Virus record (IMG/VR): IMGVR_UViG_3300030328_002163 | Reading direction: 5' to 3' (one strand) | DNA: 64,000 nucleotides | Source of the DNA: an uncultured virus (IMG/VR IMGVR_UViG_3300030328_002163) | Lineage: Duplodnaviria > Heunggongvirae > Uroviricota > Caudoviricetes > Crassvirales | Part shown: piece by piece, positions 33,245-56,300 of the stretch | Layout of the letters: each line of letters begins with the position of its first letter | How positions within the stretch are numbered: position 1 is the stretch's first letter | Translations under genes and position numbers: made by a program | Notes under the pieces: generated by a model | Seen by the model: only the letters and a program-made list of their open reading frames with translations | Databases searched by the model: none | What the model was told of the DNA's origin: nothing

Positions 33245-33467
33245 TAGTATATTGCTTGTCGTTTATGATCATTGTATATCCTGACATCTTATCGTAGTAT
33301 ATCAGATCCCCAGGTTTAATATCTTCTACATTAGTTCCAGGTTTTACTACTTTACCCTTCTTGTATCTAAAATCTTTTATATCATTAGCTGATAGTAGCA
33401 GTCCTGAGTCTGTTTTAATCTCTTCTTCTATTGTATCGATTATAATATACTTGTTTATTGGCCTCAT
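33210..33467 (-). CDS. groES: Co-chaperonin GroES
   Basis: MRPINKYIII...KTDSGLLL...GKVVKPG...IKPGD...ILERDVVVVL. Confidence 0.85.
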   Translation of the reverse strand: MRPINKYIIIDTIEEEIKTDSGLLLSANDIKDFRYKKGKVVKPGTNVEDIKPGDLIYYDKMSGYTMIINDKQYTIILERDVVVVL

Positions 33468-35062
33468 ACTCTTTTGTGTGTAATAATTGCATTAGTAGAT
33501 AAGATTGTTGTTGCTACTGACACTGCATTAACCAGTGCATTTTTAGTAACTTTCAAGGGATCAATAACTCCCATTTTATACATGTCGCCTGTTTTCTCGT
33601 TCTTCACATCATACCCATAGTTACCTCCCATCTTGTCAAACTTACCAACTATCTCCTTAACATCTTTCCCTGCATTTATAAGAATTTGATTTAATGGCAC
33701 TTGTATTGCATCAATTATTATCTCAGCTGCAACTTTATCACTTATAGTTTTCTCAAATGTTTTATATCCTAGTTCTTGTGCTGCTCGGTATAGTGCTAAC
33801 CCTCCTCCAGGAATAATGCCTTCTTGCAAGGCACTGCGCACCGCGCATACCGAGTCATCGACTCGGTCAAATTTTTCTTTTTGCTCCACGTCGCTATTAG
33901 CCCCCACATATATACACCCTATTGCACCGGCCAGACTAGCTATCCTTTCATTGATAAAGTCTTTATCGCTTTTAATTGTCATATTTTTCTGCTGTTCCTT
34001 CAGCTCGTTGATACGATCAAGGGTTGCATCGGTTAGGTTGGCCTCTTTAATAATCACACTAGAGTCTTTACCCACTATTATTTTGTCGACATGTCCCAAA
34101 TCATCCATAGATATAAGGCTCAGATCATCGCCAGTCTTCTCGCTGTATATTTTTGCTCCGACCGCGAATGCTATGTCTTGCATGAGCTCACTACTTTTGT
34201 ATCCAAACTGTGGAGGAGCTATTGTACATAGGTTCAAATTATTTCGCACCACGTTGGCCGCTAGTGTATTGACTACATTCTCCGAGCATGGAGCTATTAT
34301 TAACAACTTATCTCTATTTTGTATAATTGGTTTTAATACGTTTTCTATTTGGAGGATGTTATCTATACCAATATCACACACAAGCACCTTCACATCTTCA
34401 AGCACACACTCATCTTTACGGTGGTTGTTTAAGAACATAGGTGAGGAGTATCCCCTATCTACTTTTATCCCGTTAGTTACTTCAGCATATGTCTCATGGT
34501 TCTGAGATTTCTCTACCGTCACTATTCCATTAGTACCCACTTTGTTATATGCATCGGCTATTATCTTACCAATCTCCTTATCATTATTTGCAGATATTGT
34601 TGCTACATCGAGCAGTGTGTCCTTAGTAATTTTCTTAGAACCCTTTTCCAAAATACCAATAATCTGATCGCAGTATTTATTAATACTTTTAATAACCTCC
34701 GTGATATTATGGTTTTCTTTTAAGAGCCTTTGTCCCACATTAACAATCGCCTCGGTCAGTACTATTGCTGTTGTTGTGCCATCACCCGCTGAGTTAGCAG
34801 TTCTGGTAGCAGCATCCTTCATCATTTGTATTGCTAAATTTTCAATTGCATTGTCTAAGAATATTGACTTGGCTACAGTAACCCCATCCTTAGTTACGGT
34901 AATTCCCCCAGTGTGGTCGGGGGATTCAATGAGTACCGTCTGACCTCTCGGGCCTAGAGTGCTTTTAACTGCTTTAGATATTGCAGTAATTCCTTTTATT
35001 AATTGTGCTCTACCTTTCTCATCAAAGGTTAAGTCTTTTGGTATATATCCTAGTTTACTCAT
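33464..35062 (-). CDS. groEL: Chaperonin GroEL
   Basis: TLGPRG, VTKDGVTVAK, AGDGTTTA, VATISAN, GIIPGGG, GVIDPLKV. Confidence 0.95.
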   Translation of the reverse strand: MSKLGYIPKDLTFDEKGRAQLIKGITAISKAVKSTLGPRGQTVLIESPDHTGGITVTKDGVTVAKSIFLDNAIENLAIQMMKDAATRTANSAGDGTTTAIVLTEAIVNVGQRLLKENHNITEVIKSINKYCDQIIGILEKGSKKITKDTLLDVATISANNDKEIGKIIADAYNKVGTNGIVTVEKSQNHETYAEVTNGIKVDRGYSSPMFLNNHRKDECVLEDVKVLVCDIGIDNILQIENVLKPIIQNRDKLLIIAPCSENVVNTLAANVVRNNLNLCTIAPPQFGYKSSELMQDIAFAVGAKIYSEKTGDDLSLISMDDLGHVDKIIVGKDSSVIIKEANLTDATLDRINELKEQQKNMTIKSDKDFINERIASLAGAIGCIYVGANSDVEQKEKFDRVDDSVCAVRSALQEGIIPGGGLALYRAAQELGYKTFEKTISDKVAAEIIIDAIQVPLNQILINAGKDVKEIVGKFDKMGGNYGYDVKNEKTGDMYKMGVIDPLKVTKNALVNAVSVATTILSTNAIITHKRV

Positions 35063-35089
35063 TGAATTAAATTAAATTAAATTATAAAA

Positions 35090-35097
35090 CAAAGATA
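35090..35097 (-). promoter_or_regulatory. Bacteroidota -7 element TATCTTTG for groEL-groES
   Basis: TAnnTTTG upstream of ATG 35062. Confidence 0.7.
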
Positions 35098-35117
35098 GTA
35101 TAATTTGTTAAAATGCA

Positions 35118-35312
35118 AAATGTCGAATGACAAACTTATTGCTCACCTTACTCTCTATATATATTTTACTTTACTCTTCTTTTTTTTTATTTTTATAATA
35201 GTAATATTTTCGACATTATCGACATTAATAATAATTATAATAATAAAACTACTGAAAATCAGTTAGTTATGTTATGTCGATTTTATTTTTGTAATGACAC
35301 AGTTGTGTCAGT
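35118..35312. other. Putative replication origin A (YGACA repeats flanking AT-rich DNA)
   Basis: TGTCGAATGACA, tandem CGACATTA x2, TGTCG, TGACAC...GTGTCA around near-pure AT tracts. Confidence 0.45.
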
Positions 35313-35327
35313 TATTGTACACTAACC

Positions 35328-35358
35328 AAAAAAAAAGAGATTTATTTCTAAACCTCTT
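35328..35358 (-). terminator. Rho-independent terminator
   Basis: AGAGGTTTA-GAAA-TAAATCTCT followed by a T run on the minus strand, after ORF 35390..35584. Confidence 0.7.
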
Positions 35359-35389
35359 CATTTCACAAAAAGAAAACAGAAAAATATTT

Positions 35390-35584
35390 TTAAAAATTTA
35401 GTTCGTTAAATTTCTTTTTATCTTCCGCTAACTGTATAGCTTCTGCCATCAAATTAATCTTACGATCATTTTCAACTGCTCGTTTTGTAGCAGCTGCTTT
35501 TGCTATTCCAGTCATGCCATCACGCCTGTCATTTATAAGTCTTCCGTCCTTGACGTATAACCCATCGATGTAATCTTTTGCCAT
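35390..35584 (-). CDS. Hypothetical protein, monocistronic
   Basis: 64 aa with its own promoter (35605-35612) and terminator. Confidence 0.65.
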   Translation of the reverse strand: MAKDYIDGLYVKDGRLINDRRDGMTGIAKAAATKRAVENDRKINLMAEAIQLAEDKKKFNELNF

Positions 35585-35604
35585 AGTTATAAAATTTTAT
35601 CCTA

Positions 35605-35612
35605 CAAAGATA
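35605..35612 (-). promoter_or_regulatory. Bacteroidota -7 element TATCTTTG
   Basis: TAnnTTTG upstream of ATG 35584. Confidence 0.7.
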
Positions 35613-36106
35613 CGGAAAATATTTTTGAGTATTCAGATATATAGAGGTTGAGGGCTATACTACATCTTACACAACCCCACCCCAAAACGAAAACGACTTT
35701 TTTTTTCGATTCAAAAAATGTTTTTAAAAATTACAGATAGATTTTTTCAGAATTTTACCCTTCCATGTGGAGAGGGTAGCCTTGCAAGGTTCAGAACCTT
35801 TGAAGGTTCTTTGTCTGTTGTTCATTTTGGTGCATTCTCTTGCACTATCTCGAAGCCTTCCCTTTATTAAAGGTATTTAAAAGAGAAGAGAGAAGAGGAG
35901 CCTTCCCTTAACCCCTCACCGACTCCAATTATAACTAAACAAAACACACACAAACCAAAATAATAAAATCATAATTCAATATGATTTAATAATTGAAAAG
36001 AGAATTTAAAACATTTGAAACAAGTATTTAAATATATTTTCTTGAGGTAATTAAAAGAATTTAACAAATATTGATCAAATGTTAGTTATATATTAAATAA
36101 TTTTAT

Positions 36107-36114
36107 TATCTTAG
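36107..36114 (+). promoter_or_regulatory. Candidate early promoter -7 element (TATCTTAG, one mismatch)
   Basis: About 22 nt before the first early ATG (36136). Confidence 0.4.
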
Positions 36115-36135
36115 CTAAGAATTAAATTAACTACA

Positions 36136-36225
36136 ATGAAAAATAATACTTATGAAATGGAACTTGCAACCATTCAAAACAACTGCCAAGAATTAGAAAA
36201 CTTTATTAACAATTTAAATTTATAA
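36136..36225 (+). CDS. 29 aa first early peptide
   Basis: MKNNTYEMELATIQNNCQELENFINNLNL with AATTAACTACAATG leader. Confidence 0.45.
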   Translation: MKNNTYEMELATIQNNCQELENFINNLNL

Positions 36226-36227
36226 TC

Positions 36228-36497
36228 ATGTACAAAGTAACACAAATGACAAGCCAAAGAAGTGGCAACCCTATTGCAAATCAGTTTAAAATTAGTACTC
36301 CTAAAGGATTATTTTTTCAATCCTATAGTAGTATAATTGCTCTTATTGATAACAAAAATAATATCATCTTAGATGAGTATTACCATGACTATTCAAGAAC
36401 TACAAGCAAGTATTTAACTCAGTTTTTAGACATGAATACTCAAGAAAGAAGAAAGGCAATTAAAGGGGGTGAAATCAAACTTAAAAACCTTAACTAA
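36228..36497 (+). CDS. Early hypothetical protein
   Basis: ANQF...FQSYSSIIA...YSRTTSKY motif, recalled from phage early genes. Confidence 0.7.
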   Translation: MYKVTQMTSQRSGNPIANQFKISTPKGLFFQSYSSIIALIDNKNNIILDEYYHDYSRTTSKYLTQFLDMNTQERRKAIKGGEIKLKNLN

Positions 36498-36499
36498 GA

Positions 36500-36554
36500 G
36501 ATTAACTGAAGAGGATTTAATATCCGAAACACCTCTTTAAGAGGTGTCTTAATC
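36500..36554 (+). ncRNA. Type I hammerhead ribozyme 1
   Basis: GATTAA-CTGAAGA-GGAT(TTAAT)ATCC-GAAA-CACCTCT(TTA)AGAGGTG-TC-TTAATC; complete core, three perfect stems, GUC cleavage triplet. Confidence 0.92.
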
Positions 36555-36568
36555 AAAATGAATTAACT

Positions 36569-36772
36569 ATGGATAAAGAATTTAAAGCAAGGCAAAATGC
36601 TAAATTTAATCTACTCCTAAAAAGATTTGATGAGTGGATGAAAGATGGCAATGTTATGATTAGAAGTGATATCAAAGGAAGGTATTACTCTACTCAAGAT
36701 GCATTATATAAAAACAGAATAGAATCTAAAGCAGAACTATTAGACTATTTTGTAACTGAATTTAACTCTTAA
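36569..36772 (+). CDS. Early hypothetical protein
   Basis: 67 aa with AACTATG start. Confidence 0.65.
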   Translation: MDKEFKARQNAKFNLLLKRFDEWMKDGNVMIRSDIKGRYYSTQDALYKNRIESKAELLDYFVTEFNS

Positions 36773-36782
36773 AACTATAAAT

Positions 36783-37331
36783 ATGACTATTAAACAAAAA
36801 GTTTTTATATCTCTTAAGAAGAAGTATGAAACATCCTCATTTAAATTAGAGGATATTAGAAGAGAGATTTGGATTGCTCAAGGAAAGAATCCAAAGAAGT
36901 TTTACAATAAGCAAGGTTACTACATGGTAGCTATCAATGATTGGGTAGGTGATAGACTTTTAAATAGAAGTAAAAAGAACACTTATAAGATTACTTTTAT
37001 TGGTTGTTTATATGCTAAAAATCCAACCCACACAAACAGAGCATTAAGGAAGATTAGTGAAAGAAAAGAAGCAAGGATAAAACCTATTAATAACCATGAG
37101 GACAACTTCAAACATTTAGTTGGTAAACAAATTGTAAATGTTAGAAGACTAACTCCAAATGAGTGTGGTAAGTTAGGATGGAATAAATCTCCTCTTGTAT
37201 TGGAATTAGATGATAGTACTTGCTTAATTCCTCAAACAGATGATGAAGGAAATGATGGTGGAGCAATGCTACACTATGACTATAAACAAAGAGAAGGATA
37301 CATCAAAGAAGAGGTAATATATCATATATAG
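36783..37331 (+). CDS. Early hypothetical protein (two-domain)
   Basis: C-terminal LVGKQIVNVR...GW...DDEGNDGGA motif. Confidence 0.7.
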   Translation: MTIKQKVFISLKKKYETSSFKLEDIRREIWIAQGKNPKKFYNKQGYYMVAINDWVGDRLLNRSKKNTYKITFIGCLYAKNPTHTNRALRKISERKEARIKPINNHEDNFKHLVGKQIVNVRRLTPNECGKLGWNKSPLVLELDDSTCLIPQTDDEGNDGGAMLHYDYKQREGYIKEEVIYHI

Positions 37332-37376
37332 ATTAGTTTGGAACTTGGAGAGGTTCGACTCCTCTCCTAATCTCAA
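37330..37376 (+). ncRNA. Minimal tRNA-like element (acceptor-like stem plus T-arm, no anticodon arm)
   Basis: (A)GATTAG...GAGAGG-TTCGACT-CCTCTC-CTAATC(T); canonical T-loop; GG in the 11-nt linker. Confidence 0.6.
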
Positions 37377-37406
37377 TGCAATTGTGCAGATTATTAATTA
37401 ACTATT

Positions 37407-37757
37407 ATGGAACATAAAAAACACATGATTCTAAACCTTCTAAAACTCAAGATTAAATTTGAGGAAGATGAAGGTGCAGATGTTACATTTGAGACTAAAT
37501 ACTCAAGTGATGGCTACCCTCTTTTTATTGCTAATTATAACAATGATGAGCAAGGTGAAATGGGAGTAAAAATCTTTATGTATGAAGATAATTTCAACAT
37601 TGAAATGTATGACTACATAAGGGAAAGACTAAGTGAAGAAGACTTAAAATCAAAGACAATATCAGTATTGGCTTATGATGAAGAAGACTTTGATGAACTT
37701 ATAGATTGGAATGATTTCCACAAACAAGCAATTAAATACTTAAAAACAAATAAATAA
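37407..37757 (+). CDS. Acidic early hypothetical protein
   Basis: 116 aa, Asp/Glu-rich. Confidence 0.65.
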   Translation: MEHKKHMILNLLKLKIKFEEDEGADVTFETKYSSDGYPLFIANYNNDEQGEMGVKIFMYEDNFNIEMYDYIRERLSEEDLKSKTISVLAYDEEDFDELIDWNDFHKQAIKYLKTNK

Positions 37758-37758
37758 T

Positions 37759-37893
37759 ATGAATGATTTACTAAACTACATTGATTTCACTTCGATATGT
37801 GAAGACAACAATTTAACAAGTGGTGATATTACACCAACACAAACAAGTGAATTAGAAAAAATAATAACAGAATTTATTGAACAAAATAAATAA
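37759..37893 (+). CDS. 44 aa early peptide
   Basis: MNDLLNYIDFTSICEDNNLTSGDITPTQTSELEKIITEFIEQNK; tiles between genes. Confidence 0.6.
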   Translation: MNDLLNYIDFTSICEDNNLTSGDITPTQTSELEKIITEFIEQNK

Positions 37894-37895
37894 CT

Positions 37896-38015
37896 ATGAA
37901 CAAAAAAGAACTTATAGAAAAAATAGAATGGATTATTGAAGGAGCAGATGTTGGAGACAATATATTCCAAATAGTACAAGACATTAAAAAACTAATAAAA
38001 GAACAAAAACAATAA
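37896..38015 (+). CDS. 39 aa early peptide
   Basis: MNKKELIEKIEWIIEGADVGDNIFQIVQDIKKLIKEQKQ; TAACTATG start. Confidence 0.6.
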   Translation: MNKKELIEKIEWIIEGADVGDNIFQIVQDIKKLIKEQKQ

Positions 38016-38017
38016 TT

Positions 38018-38527
38018 ATGGGACAATATTTTAGAGTAATAAACAAAACAAAAAAAGAACTACTTAATCCTCATACTTTTGGCAGTGGGTTAAAAATAGG
38101 AGAGATTATAAGCAGTAGAGGAGAGATTCTGCAAGGACTTGTTTTGCTATTGGCAGAAGGACACATAGAGTACAAAGATTCAATTCCTCAACCATCTACC
38201 ATTATCGGTAGGTGGCAAGGAGATAAAATAACTATTTTAGGTGACTATGCTCAAGACAAAGAGGGTAATAACATTTGGAATACCATGTTAGACTCTAAAG
38301 GAGAATTAAAGAAGTCATGGAAAGATATTTCTGTTGAGACTTTTAAAACACTAATAGAGAACACCTCTGTAGGCAGTAGGAAAGCCGAACAAATAAGAAA
38401 GGGTGGCACAAAATGGATGTATAGTTGTGAGAAAGCACTTATGGAAGAACTATTCCCTAAGGAATGTACTGAAGGAGACTTAAGAGAGAAGTATGACTTT
38501 GTAGAGAAAGAACAATCTGAAGAGTAA
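38018..38527 (+). CDS. Early hypothetical protein
   Basis: MGQYF...GSGLKIGE...GRWQGDKITILGDY motif. Confidence 0.7.
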   Translation: MGQYFRVINKTKKELLNPHTFGSGLKIGEIISSRGEILQGLVLLLAEGHIEYKDSIPQPSTIIGRWQGDKITILGDYAQDKEGNNIWNTMLDSKGELKKSWKDISVETFKTLIENTSVGSRKAEQIRKGGTKWMYSCEKALMEELFPKECTEGDLREKYDFVEKEQSEE

Positions 38528-38573
38528 AGGTTTAAACACCTACGAAACTCCCATGTATTTGGGAGTCATTGTT
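38511..38573 (+). ncRNA. Type I hammerhead ribozyme 2
   Basis: AACAAT-CTGAAGA-GTA(AA)GGT(TTAAAC)ACCTAC-GAAA-CTCCCA(TGTATT)TGGGAG-TC-ATTGTT; complete core and GUC triplet. Confidence 0.9.
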
Positions 38574-38593
38574 TAACTAAAATTTAATCAAAT

Positions 38594-38974
38594 ATGAAAG
38601 AAGTTAGAGTTTATCTAATTAATCTACATGATTGTAGAGTAAAAGATATGGATAATATCTTAGAACTAACCGATAAGGAGTTTATGTTTGAAGCCGAAGA
38701 ACAAGGAAAGGTTTATTCCTTAAAAGGTTTTCAAAAAGCATTTAACTTAGAAGAGGTTAATATTGCAACCGACCAAATGAGAATAATTGAAGTAGATAAT
38801 CCAGCTGTGGAAGATCCTTCTTCAGATCCTACTTGGGAATTTGACAATTCATCTCCAATTATCCACTTGGATGAGGATGGAAATGAACTCAAAGATTCTC
38901 CACTTAGTAATCCACTTGACAACCATTTTAAAACAATGGCAAGTATGGTCAGAAACTTAACTAAAAATAAATAA
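38594..38974 (+). CDS. Early hypothetical protein
   Basis: 126 aa, AEEQGKVYSLKGFQKAFN motif. Confidence 0.65.
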   Translation: MKEVRVYLINLHDCRVKDMDNILELTDKEFMFEAEEQGKVYSLKGFQKAFNLEEVNIATDQMRIIEVDNPAVEDPSSDPTWEFDNSSPIIHLDEDGNELKDSPLSNPLDNHFKTMASMVRNLTKNK

Positions 38975-38976
38975 CT

Positions 38977-39258
38977 ATGGAAAATACTTTAAAGATTGAA
39001 CACCTTGTTGTAGATGACTTTTGGGTGTATAAAGAAACCAACAAAGAAGGACATGTAGCATTGAACTATATGTTCGGAACAAGTGATGAAGAATATGAGA
39101 TTTTCAAAAAAGAATATTGTAAAGCAGATGAAGAGTTTACAACTTGGTATAATTACTATTATAAAGGAGAGCATACAGATGATGTTATATGCTCAATGAT
39201 TCATATATGGCATGGTATAATTAAACCATCATATCTTCAAAAACAATTAAATAAATAA
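38977..39258 (+). CDS. Early hypothetical protein
   Basis: 93 aa, TAACTATG start. Confidence 0.6.
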   Translation: MENTLKIEHLVVDDFWVYKETNKEGHVALNYMFGTSDEEYEIFKKEYCKADEEFTTWYNYYYKGEHTDDVICSMIHIWHGIIKPSYLQKQLNK

Positions 39259-39260
39259 CT

Positions 39261-39614
39261 ATGGATAAAGAATTAAGAAAAAAAATTAAGGTTGATGTTG
39301 TTAATAATAATATCAAAGAAGTTATGGCTATGGAAAAAAATGGTAATGGTATTGGGGCTTATTGTTTACTAATAGATAAAACTATTGATAGTTTAAAAGC
39401 AATACCCAATTCTATTTTCTTGGAAGTGGTTTGTGATATAACATCCGAAATAACTGCCGAGAAATTTAACCACAAAGAATCAGTGTGGAATAAATCTGAA
39501 CAATCATATAACTATACTGAAGAGGCACAAGATTTCTTCAATAATAAATATGATGAAATAGAACATCTGCTTATAGATAAATTGAAACTAAATGTGGATA
39601 TGATAAACCAATAA
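39261..39614 (+). CDS. Early hypothetical protein
   Basis: 117 aa, YTEEAQDFFNNKYD motif. Confidence 0.6.
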   Translation: MDKELRKKIKVDVVNNNIKEVMAMEKNGNGIGAYCLLIDKTIDSLKAIPNSIFLEVVCDITSEITAEKFNHKESVWNKSEQSYNYTEEAQDFFNNKYDEIEHLLIDKLKLNVDMINQ

Positions 39615-39617
39615 ACT

Positions 39618-40259
39618 ATGAATGTATTAGAATTATTTAGTGGTAGCCGAAGCATCGGCAAAGAAGCAGAGAAGAGAGGGCATAAAGTCTTCTCTTCAGA
39701 CTTCAAAGATTTTCCAAACACAGACTATGTGTGTGACATCATGGAGTTTGATGTAAACAAGATTCCATTTAAGGTGGATATGTTGTGGGCATCACCACCA
39801 TGTGAGTCATTTTCTGTAGCATCAATTGGACATCATTGGGAGAAAGGTAAGGAGTTTATGCCTAAGACAAATAATGCAGTCAAAGGAATAAACATCTTAA
39901 TGAGAACAATGAAGATAATAGATATAATGTTACATAGAAATCCAAACATGATTTGGTACATAGAGAATCCAAGAGGTAAGATGAGAAAGTCTCCTCATTG
40001 GAATGAGGTCCACCATGTTAGGCACACTTTAACCTATTGTCAATATGGTGATGATAGAATGAAGCCAACAGACATTTGGACCAACAACTTTAAATGGACT
40101 CCTAAACCTATGTGTAAGAATGGTGACCCTTGTCATGTTTCTGCACCAAGAGGAAGTCAAACTGGAACACAAGGTCGTGGAAGTTACTATGATAGAAGTA
40201 AGATTCCTTCTGAATTGTGTAAAGAAATAGTAAGTATAACAAGTAAATTAAATAAATAA
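39618..40259 (+). CDS. Short C5 cytosine DNA methyltransferase
   Basis: Motif I LELFSG, motif IV WASPPC, motif VI IENP, YCQYG...KPTDIW. Confidence 0.8.
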   Translation: MNVLELFSGSRSIGKEAEKRGHKVFSSDFKDFPNTDYVCDIMEFDVNKIPFKVDMLWASPPCESFSVASIGHHWEKGKEFMPKTNNAVKGINILMRTMKIIDIMLHRNPNMIWYIENPRGKMRKSPHWNEVHHVRHTLTYCQYGDDRMKPTDIWTNNFKWTPKPMCKNGDPCHVSAPRGSQTGTQGRGSYYDRSKIPSELCKEIVSITSKLNK

Positions 40260-40262
40260 ATT

Positions 40263-40433
40263 ATGGCATTTTATAAATATGAAGAAACAGATGATAATGT
40301 TATTTATTTCTTTTGTGACCTTTATGAATTTTTAGAGGAACACAATGATTGTATGGAAACAAACTACACATCTGTATCACAATTTAATGAGGGAGAGCCT
40401 CACAGAATTATAACAAAAATTAACTTAAATTAA
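40263..40433 (+). CDS. 56 aa acidic early peptide
   Basis: MAFYKYEETDDNVIYFFCDLYEFLEEHN...; tiles between genes. Confidence 0.55.
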   Translation: MAFYKYEETDDNVIYFFCDLYEFLEEHNDCMETNYTSVSQFNEGEPHRIITKINLN

Positions 40434-40440
40434 ATAAATT

Positions 40441-40635
40441 ATGGCAAATAGTAGTTATTGCAGATATGAAAATACTGCACGAGATTTAAAAGATTGTGTA
40501 GAAGCAATTGATACTGATGGAATATCAGAAACTGCAAGTGATAGAGAAATTGAAGGGTTGAGAGATTTACTCCTTCTTGCAAAAGAAGTGGTAGATAGAG
40601 AGGATGAAATTCTGGACTTGCTCGGTGATAGTTAA
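40441..40635 (+). CDS. Early hypothetical protein
   Basis: SYCRYENT...DLKDC motif. Confidence 0.7.
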   Translation: MANSSYCRYENTARDLKDCVEAIDTDGISETASDREIEGLRDLLLLAKEVVDREDEILDLLGDS

Positions 40636-40665
40636 AAAAAATGTATAACTTAAATAAAAATTAAA

Positions 40666-40974
40666 ATGGATTTAGAAAATAAACATACTGAAATTGAACA
40701 TCTTAGAAAGCTATTGCAAGAAGAGATGAAAGCAAAGGATGAAGCAATTAAAGAGTTAAAGAGTTATAAGAACTCTTATTTAACAATTGATAAAAAGTAT
40801 TATCCAAAGGATGTAAAGTTTTATCAGAAAGCAAAACTTTTTGAAATACGAAAAGGTGATGACTTACAAGATGATGATATATGGGATTCATATTGTGAGG
40901 ATCTGGAGGTAGATGAAGGACAAGATTCCTTCTGTGTTTGTGTGATTGGAATGATGCATCAATATGACTCCTAA
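40666..40974 (+). CDS. Hypothetical protein
   Basis: 102 aa ORF with A-rich leader. Confidence 0.6.
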   Translation: MDLENKHTEIEHLRKLLQEEMKAKDEAIKELKSYKNSYLTIDKKYYPKDVKFYQKAKLFEIRKGDDLQDDDIWDSYCEDLEVDEGQDSFCVCVIGMMHQYDS

Positions 40975-41128
40975 AGGAATAATGTTAGAATTATTATACC
41001 TTGTCTCCAAAATAATGAAGGCAAGGTGTGAGCAAACATATGATGAAGCCGAAGCAGATAAGTGGAGTAAGAATCATGATGCTATAACTAAGATTATAAA
41101 CCAAATAGAAAATGGTGGAATAAAATAA
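40964..41128 (+). CDS. 54 aa hypothetical protein
   Basis: MTPKGIMLELLYLVSKIMKARCEQ...; overlaps the upstream stop. Confidence 0.5.
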   Translation: MTPKGIMLELLYLVSKIMKARCEQTYDEAEADKWSKNHDAITKIINQIENGGIK

Positions 41129-50150: not shown

Positions 50151-50342
50151 ATGAACGATATATCTCAAGACGATGTGAATGCTATCAAGCATATTAACTA
50201 TGTGACAAATAATTCACACGATCTTATTACCGAGTTATATGAGGATTTAATGGAGAGAGATCATCAACAAGCCAAAATAAAAGCCCAAGAAATTTGTAAA
50301 GTTATGGCTGAACTTATTCAGTCTTTGTCTGATGAAGTTTAG
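50151..50342 (+). CDS. Hypothetical protein
   Basis: 63 aa, converges on the large ejection protein gene. Confidence 0.6.
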   Translation: MNDISQDDVNAIKHINYVTNNSHDLITELYEDLMERDHQQAKIKAQEICKVMAELIQSLSDEV

Positions 50343-53300
50343 TTCTTTTTCTCTCTTTTTTCTTGTTCCTTCAACATCTTAATTATTTGTCTATATGCTG
50401 CTGGGGCATATTTTCGTAGGTTTTCTAGCTCTTCTTTTGAATAAGATATTCTTCCACCACTTTTTTTCTGAGCCTTTCTCTTGTCTGCAAAGAAATCATT
50501 AACTATCATTCTTCTTATGTCTTTATAAAATGGAAGTAAATTTAAGTTACCTGCTAATTCAACTGCCATTCTTTCAGTCAGTTCTCTTTCATAAAAGTCC
50601 CTAGTCTTTTTATCTTTAGCAGTAGTTAACCCTACTAGTACCTTTCTTAGTCGTTCACTTGATTGAAGAGCTGGACCATAAGGGCCGGCAAATAATTTAA
50701 TAGCATTTTCAAATGAAGTTTTATTTTTAATGTCTTCTGCACCTATAAGATTAAACACCACTGAATGTTCAAACTGATCGTACTCTTCACCTCCTCTTAA
50801 GTCTTCACCAAATTCTTCATTAGCTAACTCTATTGCTAATGAAATAGGATAGTTAGGTATATTACCCAATCCTCTTCTAAACATTAATGTAGCAATAGTT
50901 CCAACCAATTGTCTACCTAATAAGTCCTCTAGTACAATATCTTCTTCTTCATCCTCCATGTCGAAGGCTTCATCGAACAATCCTCTAAGAACTGTATATA
51001 ATGCCATATAAGCTGTCATCCTACCTGTTATACCTAAAAGCAAACCTCCCGCTTGTACTCTACTTAAATCTCCATTATTATACATAGCGGTTATAGCTTT
51101 CTTAGCTGTAATAAATTCAAACAAATTAAATCTAGCCATATATCCATTAGCTAGTTTATATGCCCTCATCATTCCACTATCTTCTTTCTGAGTTTGTAGT
51201 TTTAAAATAGAATTAAAAGGATTTACTGATGTTGCCATTCTTACTATAGCTGCATCTGCCGCTATTCTAGCATTCTTAATAGCTTCTTTATTATTTAAAT
51301 ATTCAGAGTTACCTTCTCCTATATTAATAAGATCTTGTTCTGTAAGTTTTACCCCTGTTTCTTTTTCGAATGCATTCACAAACTCTGCAAAATACAAAGG
51401 TCTTGATATAGCTTTATCAGGATTAGAGATAAGATTTGATCCCATAAAATCAGTAAGTGCAGTCGCACCTTTTAATATTGGTAAATTATCATATATAAAA
51501 TTAATCTTCTCAAGTATAGGTGGTATAGCTCTATCTTTAACAGATTTACCTTTTTTAAATACTGCTGCATCTACCATTTTGCCAGTCAAAGCAGTAGGAT
51601 CATATAGTTTTAATGTTTCTGAACTACCTATATTTCGCATAAACATAGCGCCTTGAGGATTCATGGAGTACTTTCCAAACTTAGTCATACCTTGTATAAG
51701 GGCTTTTGGACTGGAAAGCAACCCAAATAATAAGTTAGAACCTAATTCCGCACCAGCTCTAGGTACAGAAGCTAGTGCAGCAAAGTATCCTATTCTTCTC
51801 ATGTTATCGAATATTCTTTCACCGAAAGTAGTTTCTATAAAATTTCCTTCGAATACTATTCTTATATTTTCTTCAAGAGCTTTCTTTAAAGCCTCTACCG
51901 ATTCTTTTTGTATGTCTGTAGCATTTGGATCATTATCAATTTCTTTCTGTACTTTGTCAACTGTTTTTAAAACTTGTCTAATAGGTCTAGTCATTTGATA
52001 GTCCATAATAGTTTGTCTCATACCTCTTGATGTAGATGATATTATGTCAAAGTTTATAGGCTTTCCGCCAGGTGTTCTTTGTGTTAATGTACCAGCTTTA
52101 GTTGAACCAGTAGGGTTCATAAATTTTTGTTTTTGTTCTAGTGTAGCCTTTGACATGTCCTCTTTACTTTCATATACTACATCATGATGTACATAGTAAT
52201 TATATAAATCAACTCGATTACCTCTTACATTTGCAGCAGTATATAAAGCTTTAGCCGCTAGTGACTCATTTACTTTATCTATTAACTCTAAGGCTTTTAT
52301 CTCATTTTTACTTAAGGCTTTGTTTAATTTTTCATTATCTATCTGCCCTTCTTTGTTTGAAAATTCTTTTTTTAATTTTTTTAATATTTTAATATCTTCT
52401 TGAGCAAATGTTTTGTTAGACTTTTCTAACATTTCTATTGTTTTGTCTACATAATCTATAGCAGGTTCAACCCCCTTTTTATCAGGATTAGCATTATATT
52501 CTCTTTGTAATGCATAAATCATTAATCTGTACTTAGACTCAACTATACTATTAGTACCCTTTACTAGTTGTATTTTAGAATTTGGCTTACTTAATAAAAC
52601 CTCTGCTTCTTCTAATAATTTATCTGCTATACCAATATCAGTTTCGGCTTTGGAATACTCTGAAGCTAATATTAATGCAGTGGCTTTAGCTATGTCAGAA
52701 TTATTATAGTTTCCTAAGACCTCATCAATATTGCCCATATTGGTTGCTCTTATTTCTTGAAAAGTTCCTGATCCACCTCTCAACACAGACTTAACTTTAC
52801 CATAAAACTTAGATAAGAAATTGGTTATGTTGGTGCCTTTTACTTTTCTTTTAATAATGTTTGTAAACTTATTTCTATTAGCTATAATGTCATCCATTAA
52901 AGACACTGCGCTTTGGTCTATAAAACCATTGTTGATGTTGTTTAATATTTTCTTTAAATTAACTAAAGTTGAATAATCATTGCTACCATCTTTCTTTACT
53001 TTCACTAATTGTTTTAAATCTTCTTTAGTTAATGTTTTATAAAACTCTGCATCTTCAAATGCTATTTGTCCTTTAAGTGGAGATGTGTCTAATTTAATAT
53101 TAAGAATATCATCTATCTCATTATCTAAATTAAAATCTAATTCTAACTGAGTTGATTCTTCTAAATTTGTTTCTTCTTTTACTATAACAGAGTTGATTAT
53201 ATCATCTGCTGTCTTAAGCATTTTACCTGATTCATCTAAAGTTAATACCTTAGCTCTTTCACCTATGATGTTTAATAAATCCATATAAGCATCTAGCTTT

Positions 53301-56300
53301 TCTAATGGTATAATCTTAGCATCATAACTAAGTAATTTCTGTAGAGATGGAAACAAATCTTTAGCACTTCCAATCTTACTCTTAATATTTCTTTTAGCTA
53401 CTTTTCTTTTTTTGTTAGCTTGAACAATTGTATTGGCTAAATCAGCCTTCTCATAAATTTTAGTTATATAATCTTGTAATGCTTTAACTTGAGCTTCATC
53501 ATTAAAATTAGTTCTTAAAGCTTTACTAATCATTACATTAGCTTGATTCTTAGTAATTACATTTTTATTTCCTAATCCTTTAATATATTTAACTACCTCT
53601 GCGGCTTTCTTTCTAAAATCTCTTACAGCTTCCTTTGCACCTCTTTTTTCGCTTTTGACTATTTCTTTTAGTTTAGTAAGCTCAGAAGTCTTTTTCATAT
53701 CAAAGCCTTTAGTTTTTACACCTTTACCTAACATAGCATCATATACTTTAACCATATTAGGTGTAAGTTTTTTCTCTATAGCCGAACCTTTAATGCCATT
53801 ATATATATCAGTTAACCAATCTTTAAACCTAGAGAAGATTCTTTCTAATCTACTATTTGGCGCTTTACCATCTGCTAAATATTTTTCAAATCCTCGAGCA
53901 AAGATTTCACTTACTTCTCTACTCCATCTTTTTTTACCTGCAAACTTTAATACAGTTTGTTTCTCTTCTTTAGTTAAATATTTCTCATATATATGAGCTA
54001 ACTCATGTAATGGAGTAGAAACATCAGGGTTTGTCATAGCTATTATAACAAATTCACCATCTCTTGCAATCATCGCACCTCTAGCTGAAGCATCCATTTC
54101 TTGGAACAAAGGCCCTCCTGTTTCTGAGAAAGGATTTATCATGCTACCATTTTTTGTGAAAAAGTATTTCCCAGATCTTGCTTTCTTAATTCCATAGCCC
54201 AATTTTTCTGCTGCTTTTCTCAAAGCAAACTCATCAAGATTAGATGCCATGCTATACCCAGACTCATTAAAATTATAAAGTTGTGCTAATTTACCTATAG
54301 GACTTTTAGGTGATTGATATAATTTCTTTTGTTCCTTAAGAGCTTTTATATCTTCATCAGTAGCTTTTACAAATTTTATTTTTTTGTACATTTCTTCTAC
54401 AGAAATTCCTTCTCTTTTAGCCATAGATCGTATGGCTTTATCCATAACTGTAGCAGCTCCTAATGCTTGATCTCTATCAAGATTAAATACTTTTCGTTGT
54501 ATATCATAAAGTTGTTTGAGATTATTAGCCACTTTACCAGGTAGAGGTTTTTTTGTTTTTTCTTCTGCTATTTGTTTTTTTCTTCTAGCTACAGATTTTG
54601 GATTAGCAATATTTTCAAATCCTTCTATTGTTTCTGTAAGTTTTATAGTTCCAGGCTCAACTATATCAGTTTTTTCAATAAACTCCTCGTTAGTAAGGGT
54701 GTTATCTTTAGATACTTTAATAGTGCTATAAACGTCTCCGTCTGCATTTTTATATCTAAAAGTTCTACTTCCGTCTTTAGCTGTAATAACTTCAACTGAA
54801 GAATTTTCATCTGGCTCACCTTCTACACGCTCTCTTGTAAATGTGTGAGTTTCTTTTTTTACTGGATCTTTATCATTGATAGCTAAAGGATCTACTTCCT
54901 CTTCGGACTTCGTTTCCTCTTCACTGATAACTTCGGTTTCTTCTTTACCCTCTTGGGTAATGGTCCCTTCGGTGTCTCCTTTTCCCACCTCCGAGCCATC
55001 TGGGGATTGTTGGCGTGCATCCACGCCCTCTGTGCTTCGCTTTTGAATGGCATCTTCTGTAATTTTAGTTATACTTTTATTTATTTCTTCTATCTTATTA
55101 TCAATATCTTTAACTGTTCTAGGATCTTTATTTGCTTTCTTTTGCATTAAAGCTTGTTCCTCTACCATTAGGGATAGAATTTCTTTTTTAGACTGTGTAT
55201 CGAGCTCTGGATTGATTTTCTTGCTTAGTCCAACTATCTGATCATAATTAGCTAGTATCTTTTCTCCTTCTTCTTTAGTTAACTTACCATCATTAATCAT
55301 TTCTTTTATAGCTCCTACCTGTGCCTTTCTAATTTTTTTATAGTTCTTATCGTTTGATGTGTTTAAAAACAGCTCAAACAACTCATCATTCATTTCTTCT
55401 AGGTTATTTACCATAGGATCAGTTCCTAATCCTTGATACATCATCATAGGTATAGACAATGTAATACCTCCAATACCTTCTTGTATACCAGCTTTGAGTA
55501 CTTGTTTATAATATTCTTCACTAAATGCTTCAGGTGTATCGAAGTTACCTTTATCTGAAGCTACATTCCATAATCTTTTAGCATTAATCTCGGCTATTTG
55601 TTGAAGAGCTCCTGTCTCTGCTTCGGCTAATCCCATAGAGCCAGCTCGTAAGGTGCCTTTCAATATTTTGTTTTTAACTTCTCTTTCTATAATTTCAGAA
55701 AAAGTTTTTGCAGAACTTTTTCCTGTGCCTTGTCCAAGTTTTTTTAATCCTTGTAAAGTCAATTGCTTAACAAATGGAGAAGATGCAGTCATGTTACGAA
55801 ATCCATAAGCTTCTAGTATACCTGTAACTATACCTAATGGACCTGTTATTAAATACTTTTGAGATTCTGGTACTTCTGCAAAACTAGGATCTTTCTCCAT
55901 TTCCTCATTAATTGCATCCATTTGAAGTATTCCAAAGTTTAATACCCTACCACCAAAACCATAACTCATTAAAGCTGGTAAGCTTTCACCGACACCTAAT
56001 ACAGCCCCTCCCACAAGAGATTCTCTTTGTACTCTATCAGCATATTCCCTAGTTGTTTTTGTTATAGGTCTTGATAATAAATCTGTTGCACCTACCCTTA
56101 CAGAAGGTAGTACTTCTGCTTTTACAGATTTACTAGCTATATCTTTTACTTTAGAATTTAACTCAGATTTCTTTGATTTATCTATATTATTAACAATGTT
56201 TTGTAATTTATCTAGTGGTATATCTCCATATTTAGCTTCTAAGTAAGCATTTCTTAATGCCATCTCAGCAGGTTTACCTTTTTTAAAACCTTGTATCTCT

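What the first reader, a model, noticed from the sequence alone, without database searches (positions are those of the whole stretch)
36500..36554. Self-cleaving hammerhead ribozyme between two early genes
Seen: a complete type I hammerhead 3 nt after the stop of 36228..36497. Stem I is GATTAA/TTAATC, then the CUGAAGA core, stem II GGAT/ATCC, GAAA, stem III CACCTCT/AGAGGTG and a GUC triplet. The predicted cut follows 36548, about 20 nt before the next ATG. Established: this is the hammerhead consensus, and cleavage leaves 5'-OH and 2',3'-cyclic phosphate ends. Inference: it splits the early polycistronic mRNA and sets the stability and translation of the downstream gene.
Basis: partly seen in the sequence, partly recalled or inferred. 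Interest (0 to 1): 0.85.

Follow-up and report, generated by a model that had tools for sequence, protein, structure and literature searches.

The report
Hammerhead ribozyme in marine phage operon
This is a genuine-looking self-cutting hammerhead RNA sitting between two genes of an uncultured marine phage, one of two in the same gene block and one of many near-identical ones in aquatic phages, so it is real but of an already known kind.

Summary
Window 36500-36554 (+) carries a full type I hammerhead: 6-bp stem I, CUGAAGA, 4-bp stem II, GAA, 8-bp stem III and GUC, with the cut after C36548.

It is not chance. Across 300 shuffled windows there were 26 loose matches and none with such stems. A second type I hammerhead lies at 38510-38574 on the same strand.

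A covariance model built from five other phage hammerheads scores the two at 60.2 and 30.2 bits. The next best hit scores 15.5.

Searching public contigs with only the core plus stem II of HH1 gave 116 matches. Of these, 115 are complete hammerheads, always with a 6-bp stem I flanked by A/A, and with 51 different stem III hairpins. The cut lies a median 25 nt before the next same-strand start codon.

HH2 is invariant in 3 of 3 related phage contigs. HH1 is kept in 1 of 3, between different genes.

Rfam's curated thresholds miss both hammerheads. Cleavage itself, expression timing and downstream effects are untested.

Verdict: a new member of a known kind, the phage intergenic hammerheads (Perreault 2011). 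Interest is moderate to low.

The parts
36228..36497 (+). Upstream 89-aa ORF (PHROG 21575, function unknown). Its TAA stop ends 2 nt before the ribozyme.
   Evidence: Homologues occur in 28 IMG/VR loci, none followed by a hammerhead. It is absent from the three close relatives.
36499..36499 (+). Unpaired A directly 5' of stem I. Together with A36555 it forms an A/A pair of flanks that closes the 6-bp stem I.
   Evidence: A at both flanks in 82 of 82 distinct lineage members.
36500..36505 (+). HH1 stem I, 5' strand.
36506..36512 (+). HH1 catalytic core C3-A9 (CUGAAGA).
36513..36525 (+). HH1 stem II (4 bp, starting with G10.1-C11.1) with a 5-nt loop UUAAU.
   Evidence: The same stem/loop module was found 116 times in public contigs.
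36526..36528 (+). HH1 core G12 A13 A14.
36529..36547 (+). HH1 stem III hairpin (A15.1 to U16.1; 8 bp, 3-nt loop).
36548..36548 (+). C17. The predicted scissile bond lies between 36548 and 36549.
   Evidence: Position in the consensus. Lineage members have C (51) or A (7) here and never G.
36549..36554 (+). HH1 stem I, 3' strand. It becomes the 5'-OH end of the downstream RNA after the cut.
36555..36568 (+). A-rich leader between the ribozyme and the ATG. It contains a two-codon mini-frame (36558-36566) and the recurring TAACTATG start context.
   Evidence: It is conserved together with HH1 in contig G002 (76 nt, 96% identical).
36569..36772 (+). Downstream 67-aa ORF with no family match. It is absent at this place in G002, where HH1 directly precedes the homologue of ORF 36783-37331.
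38510..38574 (+). HH2, a second type I hammerhead. Stem I has 7 bp. Stem II is 3 bp, a bulged A, then 4 bp. Stem III has 7 bp. The triplet is GUC, with the cut after C38567. Its 5' half overlaps the last codons and the TAA stop (38525-27) of ORF 38018-38527. The next ATG is at 38594.
   Evidence: (30.2 bits, E 1.7e-5). All stems are invariant in 3 of 3 relatives.

Best explanation
HH1 (36500-36554, + strand) is a functional type I hammerhead self-cleaving ribozyme. It is encoded in the short spacer between two co-directional genes of an uncultured marine tailed phage, probably one that infects Flavobacteriia.

Proposed mechanism:
- When the + strand gene block is transcribed, the 55-nt element folds into the three-way junction.
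- It then cuts its own backbone after C36548 by internal transesterification.
- The upstream RNA ends in the stem II/III hairpins with a 2',3'-cyclic phosphate.
- The downstream RNA starts with a 5'-OH, 20 nt before the next gene's AUG.

Together with HH2 (cut after C38567), this would chop the polycistronic transcript into gene-length pieces, each with a short, defined, A-rich leader.

Shown here: the motif, its non-random nature, its lineage, the co-variation, the conservation and the fixed genomic geometry.

Inferred: the cleavage itself, and its effects on the stability and translation of the flanking cistrons.
For: 1. All consensus positions and the three core-adjacent pairs are present. 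The junction is the MFE fold of the 77-nt stretch.

2. Chance is excluded. There are two hits in the window, against 26 loose and 0 equally good hits in 300 shuffles.

3. Model R1 was built from 5 IMG/VR hammerheads, none from the window. It scores HH1 at 60.2 bits (E 1.3e-13) and HH2 at 30.2 bits (E 1.7e-5). The next hit in 64 kb scores 15.5 bits.

4. A pattern holding only the core, stem II/loop II and GAAAC of HH1 found 116 matches in 112 loci. Of these, 115 have a complete stem I, stem III and U-H.
 - There are 58 distinct ribozymes.
 - Stem I is always 6 bp, in 19 variants.
 - The triplet is GUC in 51 and GUA in 7.
 - There are 51 distinct stem III hairpins.
 - A lies on both flanks of stem I in 82 of 82 distinct contexts.

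5. Genomic geometry in that lineage:
 - 80 of 81 usable contexts have a same-strand ORF ending at or just before the ribozyme.
 - 76 of 80 have a same-strand ATG ORF of at least 50 codons within 150 nt.
 - The cut-to-ATG distance has a median of 25 nt (quartiles 22-30). HH1 is at 20 nt and HH2 at 26 nt.

6. Orthologues:
 - HH2 is unchanged in all stems in 3 of 3 related contigs, although the adjacent protein falls to 55% identity. The changes lie only in loops.
 - HH1 plus its leader is 96% identical over 76 nt in G002, while the genes on both sides differ.

7. The best Rfam match to HH1 is a hammerhead family: RF03152, 27.3 bits, E 0.0028.

8. Precedent (PMC3088659, passages read): clustered hammerheads flank genes in prophages. 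About 2-kb polycistronic constructs were cut at every ribozyme in vitro, and one triple arrangement was cut in E. coli.
Against: - No experiment or RNA data bears on cleavage here.
- Rfam at its curated thresholds reports nothing in the window. On a 251-nt stretch no hammerhead family appeared even at E<=10. The 76-nt search gives only a sub-threshold hit: 27.3 bits against a gathering score of 56.3, covering model positions 21-77 only.
- Stem I has a single G-C pair. In a 201-nt context the MFE keeps stems II and III but pairs the stem I strands elsewhere. The active fold may therefore depend on co-transcriptional folding or tertiary contacts.
- HH1 is missing from 2 of the 3 close relatives, from all 28 contigs that carry the upstream gene, and from 30.9 kb (record positions 30000-60850) of a freshwater relative, MW202828.1, the only part searched. 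It is dispensable.
- The R1 seeds were fetched with a pattern whose 17 fixed letters came from the window's own hammerheads. Its E-values therefore overstate independence.
- Alignment A3 was selected and fitted by that model.
Confidence: 0.85

Rival explanations
1. The motif is a true hammerhead by descent, but it is slow, conditional or decaying in this phage. It would be a minimal-type ribozyme with a weak A-U stem I that cuts little at cellular Mg2+, so it has little effect on expression.
For: - Stem I has 5 of 6 A-U pairs and is lost from the MFE in a 201-nt context.
- No pseudoknot partner for loop II is supported.
- HH1 is absent from 2 of 3 close relatives.
- Perreault et al. report slow phage variants.
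Against: - The core is fully canonical.
- HH1 shares the exact 6-bp stem I, the A/A flanks and the UNAAU loop II that are invariant or near-invariant in 82 contexts. That points to a maintained tertiary contact.
- The G002 orthologue differs only in the two loops.
Confidence: 0.08
2. The hairpins act as something other than a ribozyme, and the core letters are incidental. Candidates are an intrinsic terminator or attenuator, a 3'-end stabiliser, or an RNase or protein binding site.
For: - 12 of 28 loci (9 of 18 distinct sequences) carrying homologues of the upstream gene have a terminator-like hairpin with a T-run at the corresponding place.
- HH2's stem III was flagged as terminator-like by the simple scan.
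Against: - HH1 has no T-run after stem III. Neither scan flags it.
- A terminator would not need CUGAAGA, GAA, U-H, a 6-bp stem I or the A/A flanks, all of which are conserved across 115 of 116 relatives.
Confidence: 0.04
3. It is a chance resemblance in A+T-rich DNA.
For: - The motif is short.
- The scan covers very many windows.
- Rfam gathering thresholds are not reached.
Against: - 0 of 300 shuffles gave an equally good hit.
- A second copy lies on the same strand 2 kb away.
- Orthologues exist.
- 115 of 116 core-plus-stem-II matches elsewhere are complete hammerheads.
Confidence: 0.01

Closest known systems
Type I hammerhead ribozyme (Rfam RF00163, clan CL00010)
   Same: - Same topology, with stem I open and stems II and III capped.
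- Same core, with the same G10.1-C11.1 and A15.1-U16.1 pairs.
- 6-bp stem I as in the Rfam consensus shown.
- An A-rich loop II.
   Different: - RF00163 did not report HH1 in any run.
- A sister phage hammerhead (L140) reached only 28.2 bits against the gathering score of 34.
- This phage lineage has a longer stem III and fixed A/A flanks.
RAGATH-1 hammerhead (Rfam RF03152)
   Same: It is the best Rfam match for both HH1 (27.3 bits, E 0.0028) and HH2 (21 bits, E 0.12). The matches cover the ribozyme part of the model, positions 21-77.
   Different: - The 5' hairpin of that family (model positions 1-20) is not matched.
- The score is about half the gathering score of 56.3.
- HH1 is therefore not a member of that sub-family.
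Clustered hammerheads flanking genes in prophages (Perreault et al. 2011, PMC3088659; passages read)
   Same: - Several ribozymes of one polarity lie close together and flank single genes whose identity varies.
- The proposed role is processing of long phage transcripts into gene-length mRNAs.
- Cleavage was shown in vitro, and for one case in E. coli.
   Different: - Those tested cases are from prophages of Clostridium, Azorhizobium and Agrobacterium.
- This one is in an uncultured marine lytic-type phage contig, and its activity is untested.
HHphage of haloviruses HF1/HF2 (Perreault et al. 2011, passage read)
   Same: - The ribozyme lies a few nucleotides (13) upstream of a start codon in the early region.
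- A mapped transcript 5' end lies within 3 nt of the cleavage site.
   Different: - HHphage is a structural variant that needs high Mg2+.
- It sits at the head of a transcript of an archaeal virus.
- HH1 has a canonical core.
Type I hammerheads in 5'-UTRs of fungal and plant RNA viruses (Lopez-Galiano et al. 2026, PMC13725137; abstract read)
   Same: A type I hammerhead lies just upstream of an ORF, and there self-cleavage is needed for translation initiation.
   Different: - That is a eukaryotic, cap-independent context with RNA genomes.
- Nothing comparable has been shown for bacterial translation.

Membership tests
Hammerhead ribozyme (class) | Core C3-U4-G5-A6-N7-G8-A9 between stems I and II. 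| tested here: met
   CUGAAGA at 36506-36512.
Hammerhead ribozyme (class) | G12-A13-A14 between stems II and III, with an A15.1-U16.1 pair. | tested here: met
   GAA at 36526-28. A36529 pairs with U36547.
Hammerhead ribozyme (class) | Cleavage triplet N-U-H, where H is not G. | tested here: met
   G36546, U36547, C36548.
Hammerhead ribozyme (class) | Three helices meet at the core with no mispair next to it. This is the acceptance rule of Perreault 2011 (Methods passage). | tested here: met
   Stems of 6, 4 and 8 bp. The pairs 1.1-2.1 (U-A), 10.1-11.1 (G-C) and 15.1-16.1 (A-U) are all standard.
Hammerhead ribozyme (class) | Stems maintained by compensatory change among relatives. | tested here: met
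   In the lineage found through core plus stem II only:
- 115 of 116 matches have stems I and III.
- There are 19 stem I variants and 51 stem III hairpins.

Among direct orthologues the stems do not vary at all, so they are uninformative.
Hammerhead ribozyme (class) | Score at or above Rfam's gathering threshold for a hammerhead family. | tested here: not met
   - 0 matches at gathering thresholds in the whole window.
- The best hit is RF03152 at 27.3 bits against 56.3.
- Sister phage hammerheads are also sub-threshold.
Hammerhead ribozyme (class) | [quoted passage not shown] | tested here: inconclusive
   - The fixed 6-bp stem I, the invariant A/A flanks (82 of 82) and the UNAAU loop II suggest a contact.
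- A loop II to 3'-tail pseudoknot is not supported: the G002 loop changes without a change in the tail.
Hammerhead ribozyme (class) | Site-specific self-cleavage giving 5'-OH and 2',3'-cyclic phosphate ends. | not testable with these tools
   No RNA run was listed. Only DNA contigs were laid.
Type I topology | The 5' and 3' ends leave through stem I, and stems II and III are closed by loops. | tested here: met
   Order of the elements along 36500-36554.
RAGATH-1 hammerhead (RF03152) | Conserved hairpin 5' of stem I (model positions 1-20). | tested here: not met
   The alignment starts at model position 21 for both HH1 and HH2.

The most novel reading that the evidence does not exclude
In this aquatic-phage lineage the ribozyme is not just a transcript cutter. 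It would be a cistron-start device.

The fixed module has four parts: an upstream stop codon at or inside stem I, the hammerhead, an invariant A, and an A-rich leader. It places a 5'-OH end 22-30 nt before the next AUG. On this reading, self-cleavage is required for efficient, independent translation initiation of internal cistrons, and for protection from 5'-end-dependent decay. About 6 in 10 of these phage leaders lack a Shine-Dalgarno-like sequence. This would be a bacterial counterpart of the ribozyme-dependent translation initiation just reported for eukaryotic RNA viruses.

The same module would also mark the junctions at which accessory genes are swapped. In this window and its relatives, HH1 and HH2 both sit exactly at breaks in homology.
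Probability: 0.15. Interest if true: 0.7.

Novelty: new member of a known kind. Interest (0 to 1): 0.35.

Why it matters
What hammerheads do in phages and bacteria is still unsettled. Perreault et al. call the functions unclear.

This window adds a clean pair of canonical type I ribozymes in a phage gene block. Through them it exposes a well-populated lineage that standard Rfam annotation does not report at its thresholds.

That lineage has a strikingly fixed geometry:
- a 6-bp stem I;
- invariant A/A flanks;
- an upstream stop codon at or inside the ribozyme;
- the cut about 25 nt before the next start codon.

This geometry gives a concrete, testable hypothesis: the ribozymes act as cistron separators or leader-defining elements. 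For genome annotation it is also a reminder that short phage spacers may hold ribozymes that threshold-based scans miss.

The element itself is not a new kind of thing.

Tried and rejected
- **Rfam, whole window, gathering thresholds:** nothing. On 251 nt at E<=10 no hammerhead family was listed. Only the 76-nt search showed the sub-threshold RF03152 hit, so the outcome depends on the filters.
- **Whole genome:** none is held.
- **INPHARED blastn of 35500-38500:** no match.
- **Earlier findings of this scan:** none.
- **RNA evidence:** no RNA holder was listed. Four DNA contig sets were laid. They gave only short pieces. One X2 contig spans 36393-36568 with 1 difference, and one X4 contig spans 38526-38689 with none. 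They gave no information on RNA ends and no useful variation in the ribozymes.
- **Relatives of the upstream 89-aa gene (28 loci):** no hammerhead by my descriptor.
- **Freshwater relative MW202828.1, positions 30000-60850:** no R1 hit at E<=0.1.
- **MAFFT alignment of 27 hammerheads (A1):** too poorly aligned in the stems to model. I replaced it with 5 equal-length sequences (A2).
- **Pseudoknot between loop II and 36562-36566:** possible on paper in the window, but the G002 orthologue changes the loop and not the tail. Rejected as unsupported.
- **Circular RNA made by joining the HH1 and HH2 cut ends:** the two stem I sequences are not complementary to each other, so no hybrid ribozyme could form. 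Rejected by reasoning; not tested.
- **Terminator reading of HH1:** not flagged by either scan.
- **Sigma-70-type promoter scan of 34900-41000:** fewer sites than in shuffles (24 against a mean of 33.4), so it says nothing about the transcription start.
- **Genome-contig scan with a looser loop pattern:** 14 matches, which is roughly what chance would give by my own estimate. R1 reports four of them at E<=0.001. Three are clear: a Flavobacterium granuli contig at 57.7 bits, a Polaromonas MAG at 50 bits and a Tenacibaculum MAG at 33.3 bits. The fourth, a Ruminococcus MAG, is marginal at 21.3 bits.

Full report
**1. The observation**

- a 6-bp stem I (36500-05 with 36549-54);
- CUGAAGA (36506-12);
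- a 4-bp stem II beginning with G-C and closed by a 5-nt loop (36513-25);
- GAA (36526-28);
- an 8-bp stem III that starts with the A15.1-U16.1 pair (36529-47);
- C17 at 36548.

The order of the parts is that of a type I hammerhead. The 77-nt stretch 36490-36566 folds into exactly this junction as its minimum-energy structure (-15.8 kcal/mol, z -2.81).

The element starts 2 nt after the TAA stop of the 89-aa ORF 36228-36497. The predicted cut lies 20 nt before the ATG of the 67-aa ORF 36569-36772. A two-codon mini-frame begins earlier, at 36558.

**2. Chance**

I wrote a descriptor that asks for the core, GAAA, U-H and three stems of at least 4, 3 and 3 pairs, in all three circular permutations. 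It finds two hits in the 64 kb on both strands. Both are type I and both are on the + strand: HH1, and a second one, HH2, at 38510-38574.

In 300 first-order Markov shuffles of the window there were 26 loose hits in all (7 of them type I). None had stems as long as the real ones.

HH2 has the same core. Its cut follows C38567, and its 5' half overlaps the last codons and the stop of ORF 38018-38527. It folds as a hammerhead on its own.

**3. Curated models**

- Rfam at gathering thresholds reports nothing in the window.
- With E-value reporting, a 251-nt stretch around HH1 gave no hammerhead family at all.
- A 76-nt stretch gave RF03152 (RAGATH-1 hammerhead) as the best hit: 27.3 bits, E 0.0028, against a gathering score of 56.3, matching model positions 21-77 only.
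- HH2 gave the same family at 21 bits, E 0.12.
- Other phage type I hammerheads that I collected are also sub-threshold. L140, for example, scores 28.2 bits on RF00163 against 34.

The curated thresholds therefore miss this group. That is a point against membership by that criterion, and I report it as such.

**4. A model from other phages**

Of these, 29 carry all three stems.

Five of equal length, none from the window, gave the covariance model R1. With filters off over the whole window, R1 scores as follows:

| Hit | Bits | E-value |
|---|---|---|
| HH1 | 60.2 | 1.3e-13 |
| HH2 | 30.2 | 1.7e-5 |
| Next best | 15.5 | 0.15 |

Caveat: the seeds were fetched with 17 letters taken from the window's own ribozymes. 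The core contribution to these scores is therefore not independent.

On the 28 R1 hits among 100 of those loci, 98% of pair cells are standard pairs, against 57% in shuffles and 30-35% with slid partners. That alignment was selected and fitted by the model, so it leans towards the structure.

**5. The cleaner test**

I searched with only the core, stem II/loop II and GAAAC of HH1. Nothing in this pattern is from stem I, stem III or position 17.
- It matched 21 IMG/VR loci and 91 metagenome loci, 116 matches in all. Some contigs are in both collections.
- 115 of the 116 have a complete stem I, stem III and U-H.
- They comprise 58 distinct ribozymes. Stem I is 6 bp in all 58, in 19 sequence variants. 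The triplet is GUC in 51 and GUA in 7.
- One metagenome contig (L205) carries a ribozyme identical to HH1.

After dereplication to 82 distinct contexts:
- the base just 5' and the base just 3' of stem I are both A in 82 of 82;
- there are 51 different stem III hairpins;
- positions 2-6 of stem I show several pair types each.

Stems I and III and the H17 rule are therefore maintained in a set chosen without regard to them. HH1 is an ordinary member of this lineage.

**6. Genomic geometry of the lineage**

- In 80 of 81 usable contexts, a same-strand ORF of at least 40 codons ends between 60 nt before the ribozyme and the cut.
- By my count of the printed list, in 31 of those 80 the stop codon is the TAA formed by the last three bases of the stem I 5' strand. 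In 11 it is the TGA of the core.
- In 76 of 80 usable contexts, a same-strand ATG ORF of at least 50 codons starts within 150 nt.
- The distance from the cut to that ATG has a median of 25 nt (quartiles 22 and 30). HH1 (20 nt) and HH2 (26 nt) fit.
- Leaders are A-rich. 31 of 81 contain a Shine-Dalgarno-like tetramer. The loci have a median G+C of 0.345.

A smaller, looser set gave the same picture.

**7. Close relatives of this phage**

Three IMG/VR contigs share the neighbouring genes: G001 (89 kb), G002 (59.6 kb) and G003 (28 kb).

HH2 is present in all three:
- Every stem position is unchanged.
- Differences lie only in loops II and III, although the adjacent 169-aa protein is only 55% identical in G003.
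- The sequence diverges right after the ribozyme.

HH1 is present only in G002:
- A 76-nt block (36496-36571: ribozyme, leader and ATG) is 96% identical there. The two changes are in loop II and at the loop-closing pair of stem III.
- The gene upstream is unrelated and the 67-aa gene is missing, so the ribozyme directly precedes the homologue of ORF 36783-37331.

G001 and G003 have tightly packed genes and no ribozyme at the corresponding places.

The 89-aa upstream gene is absent from all three. It occurs in 28 other viral contigs, none with a hammerhead. In 12 of them (9 of 18 distinct sequences) it is followed by a terminator-like hairpin.

Both ribozymes thus sit at breaks in homology. HH1 is an accessory feature within this phage group.

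**8. What the window is**

It is a tailed phage. It encodes a portal, tail fibres, GroEL, an exonuclease, a primase-helicase, two DNA methyltransferases and a helicase. It has no tRNA genes and no DNA match in INPHARED.

The primase is closest to phages of Flavobacterium, Nonlabens, Polaribacter and Cellulophaga. The single best match (67.6% identity) is an uncultured freshwater record. The DNA is held by marine metagenome runs.

The + strand block from about 36.1 to 49.9 kb starts with small ORFs and continues into replication genes. GC and AT skew switch sign there. 'Early' is therefore plausible but inferred.

**9. Mechanism**

Established chemistry of the class: the 2'-OH of C17 attacks the adjacent phosphate, giving a 2',3'-cyclic phosphate and a 5'-OH.

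Applied here, which is inference:
- The transcript of the + block is cut after 36548 and after 38567.
- Each upstream piece ends in the ribozyme's own hairpins.
- Each downstream piece begins with a short A-rich leader.

The fixed cut-to-AUG distance and the stop-codon overlap across the lineage argue that the element is built to separate cistrons precisely. Whether the benefit is stability, uncoupled translation or something else is open.

Weak points are the A-U-rich stem I, which loses out in a 201-nt MFE fold, and the lack of any direct RNA evidence.

**10. Comparison with what is known**

Perreault et al. 2011 (PMC3088659; passages read) described:
- hundreds of bacterial hammerheads near prophage genes;
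- multiple ribozymes flanking single genes of varying identity;
- cleavage of about 2-kb polycistronic constructs;
- a halovirus variant 13 nt before a start codon;
- stem lengths constrained by tertiary contacts.

HH1 and HH2 are further examples.

A 2026 paper (PMC13725137; abstract read) shows type I hammerheads in 5'-UTRs of RNA mycoviruses whose cleavage is needed for translation. That is an analogy only.

My literature searches did not turn up a description of this particular GGAU-stem II aquatic lineage or of its 25-nt spacing. The 2011 supplements and the Rfam seed alignments were not inspected, so I do not claim it is unpublished.

**11. Verdict**

The identification as a type I hammerhead is well supported, and the functional consequences are inferred. 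It is a new member of a known kind, and interest is moderate to low.

Noticed in passing
window 38510-38574 (+): A second canonical type I hammerhead (HH2) lies 2 kb downstream on the same strand. It overlaps the stop of ORF 38018-38527, and its stems are invariant in 3 of 3 related contigs.
   Followed up: yes
window 36564-36571, 37891-37898, 38972-38979, 39256-39263 (+); 35582-35589 (-): The start context TAACTATG recurs at ORF starts of the small-gene block: 9 in the window against 4.6 expected, with 5 of 100 shuffles reaching 9. The stretches 36561-36582 and 39253-39274 are 95% identical, so two ORFs begin with the same five residues. This may be a shared translation-start signal without a Shine-Dalgarno sequence, or a recombination point.
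   Followed up: partly
window 35585-36136: A gene-poor spacer of about 550 nt lies between the divergent gene blocks. It is G+C-richer in places (around 35640-35930) and has several hairpins. It is 72-84% identical to the related contigs but matches no Rfam family. It could hold promoters or an unknown RNA.
   Followed up: no
window 38824-38982 vs L148 3700-3858: A 159-nt stretch is 100% identical to contig G002, while the surrounding genes are 80-92% identical. The gene order after HH2 also differs among relatives. This looks like recent mosaic exchange next to the ribozyme.
   Followed up: no
window 33464-35062 (-): The phage encodes a full-length GroEL-type chaperonin (PHROG 5725, E 2e-133). 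The freshwater relative MW202828.1 is annotated with both groEL and a 10-kDa co-chaperonin.
   Followed up: no
L178 (= L263), IMG/VR contig of 23.7 kb: Three hammerheads of the same lineage lie within about 1.1 kb. L118 likewise has three in 1.2 kb, with the same or almost the same stem I, and L256/L257 has two in 1.5 kb. Arrays of ribozymes that each flank one small gene are common in this lineage.
   Followed up: partly
window 50339-57406 (-): A very large ORF of 2355 aa matches only PHROGs of unknown function (32588, 9880).
   Followed up: no
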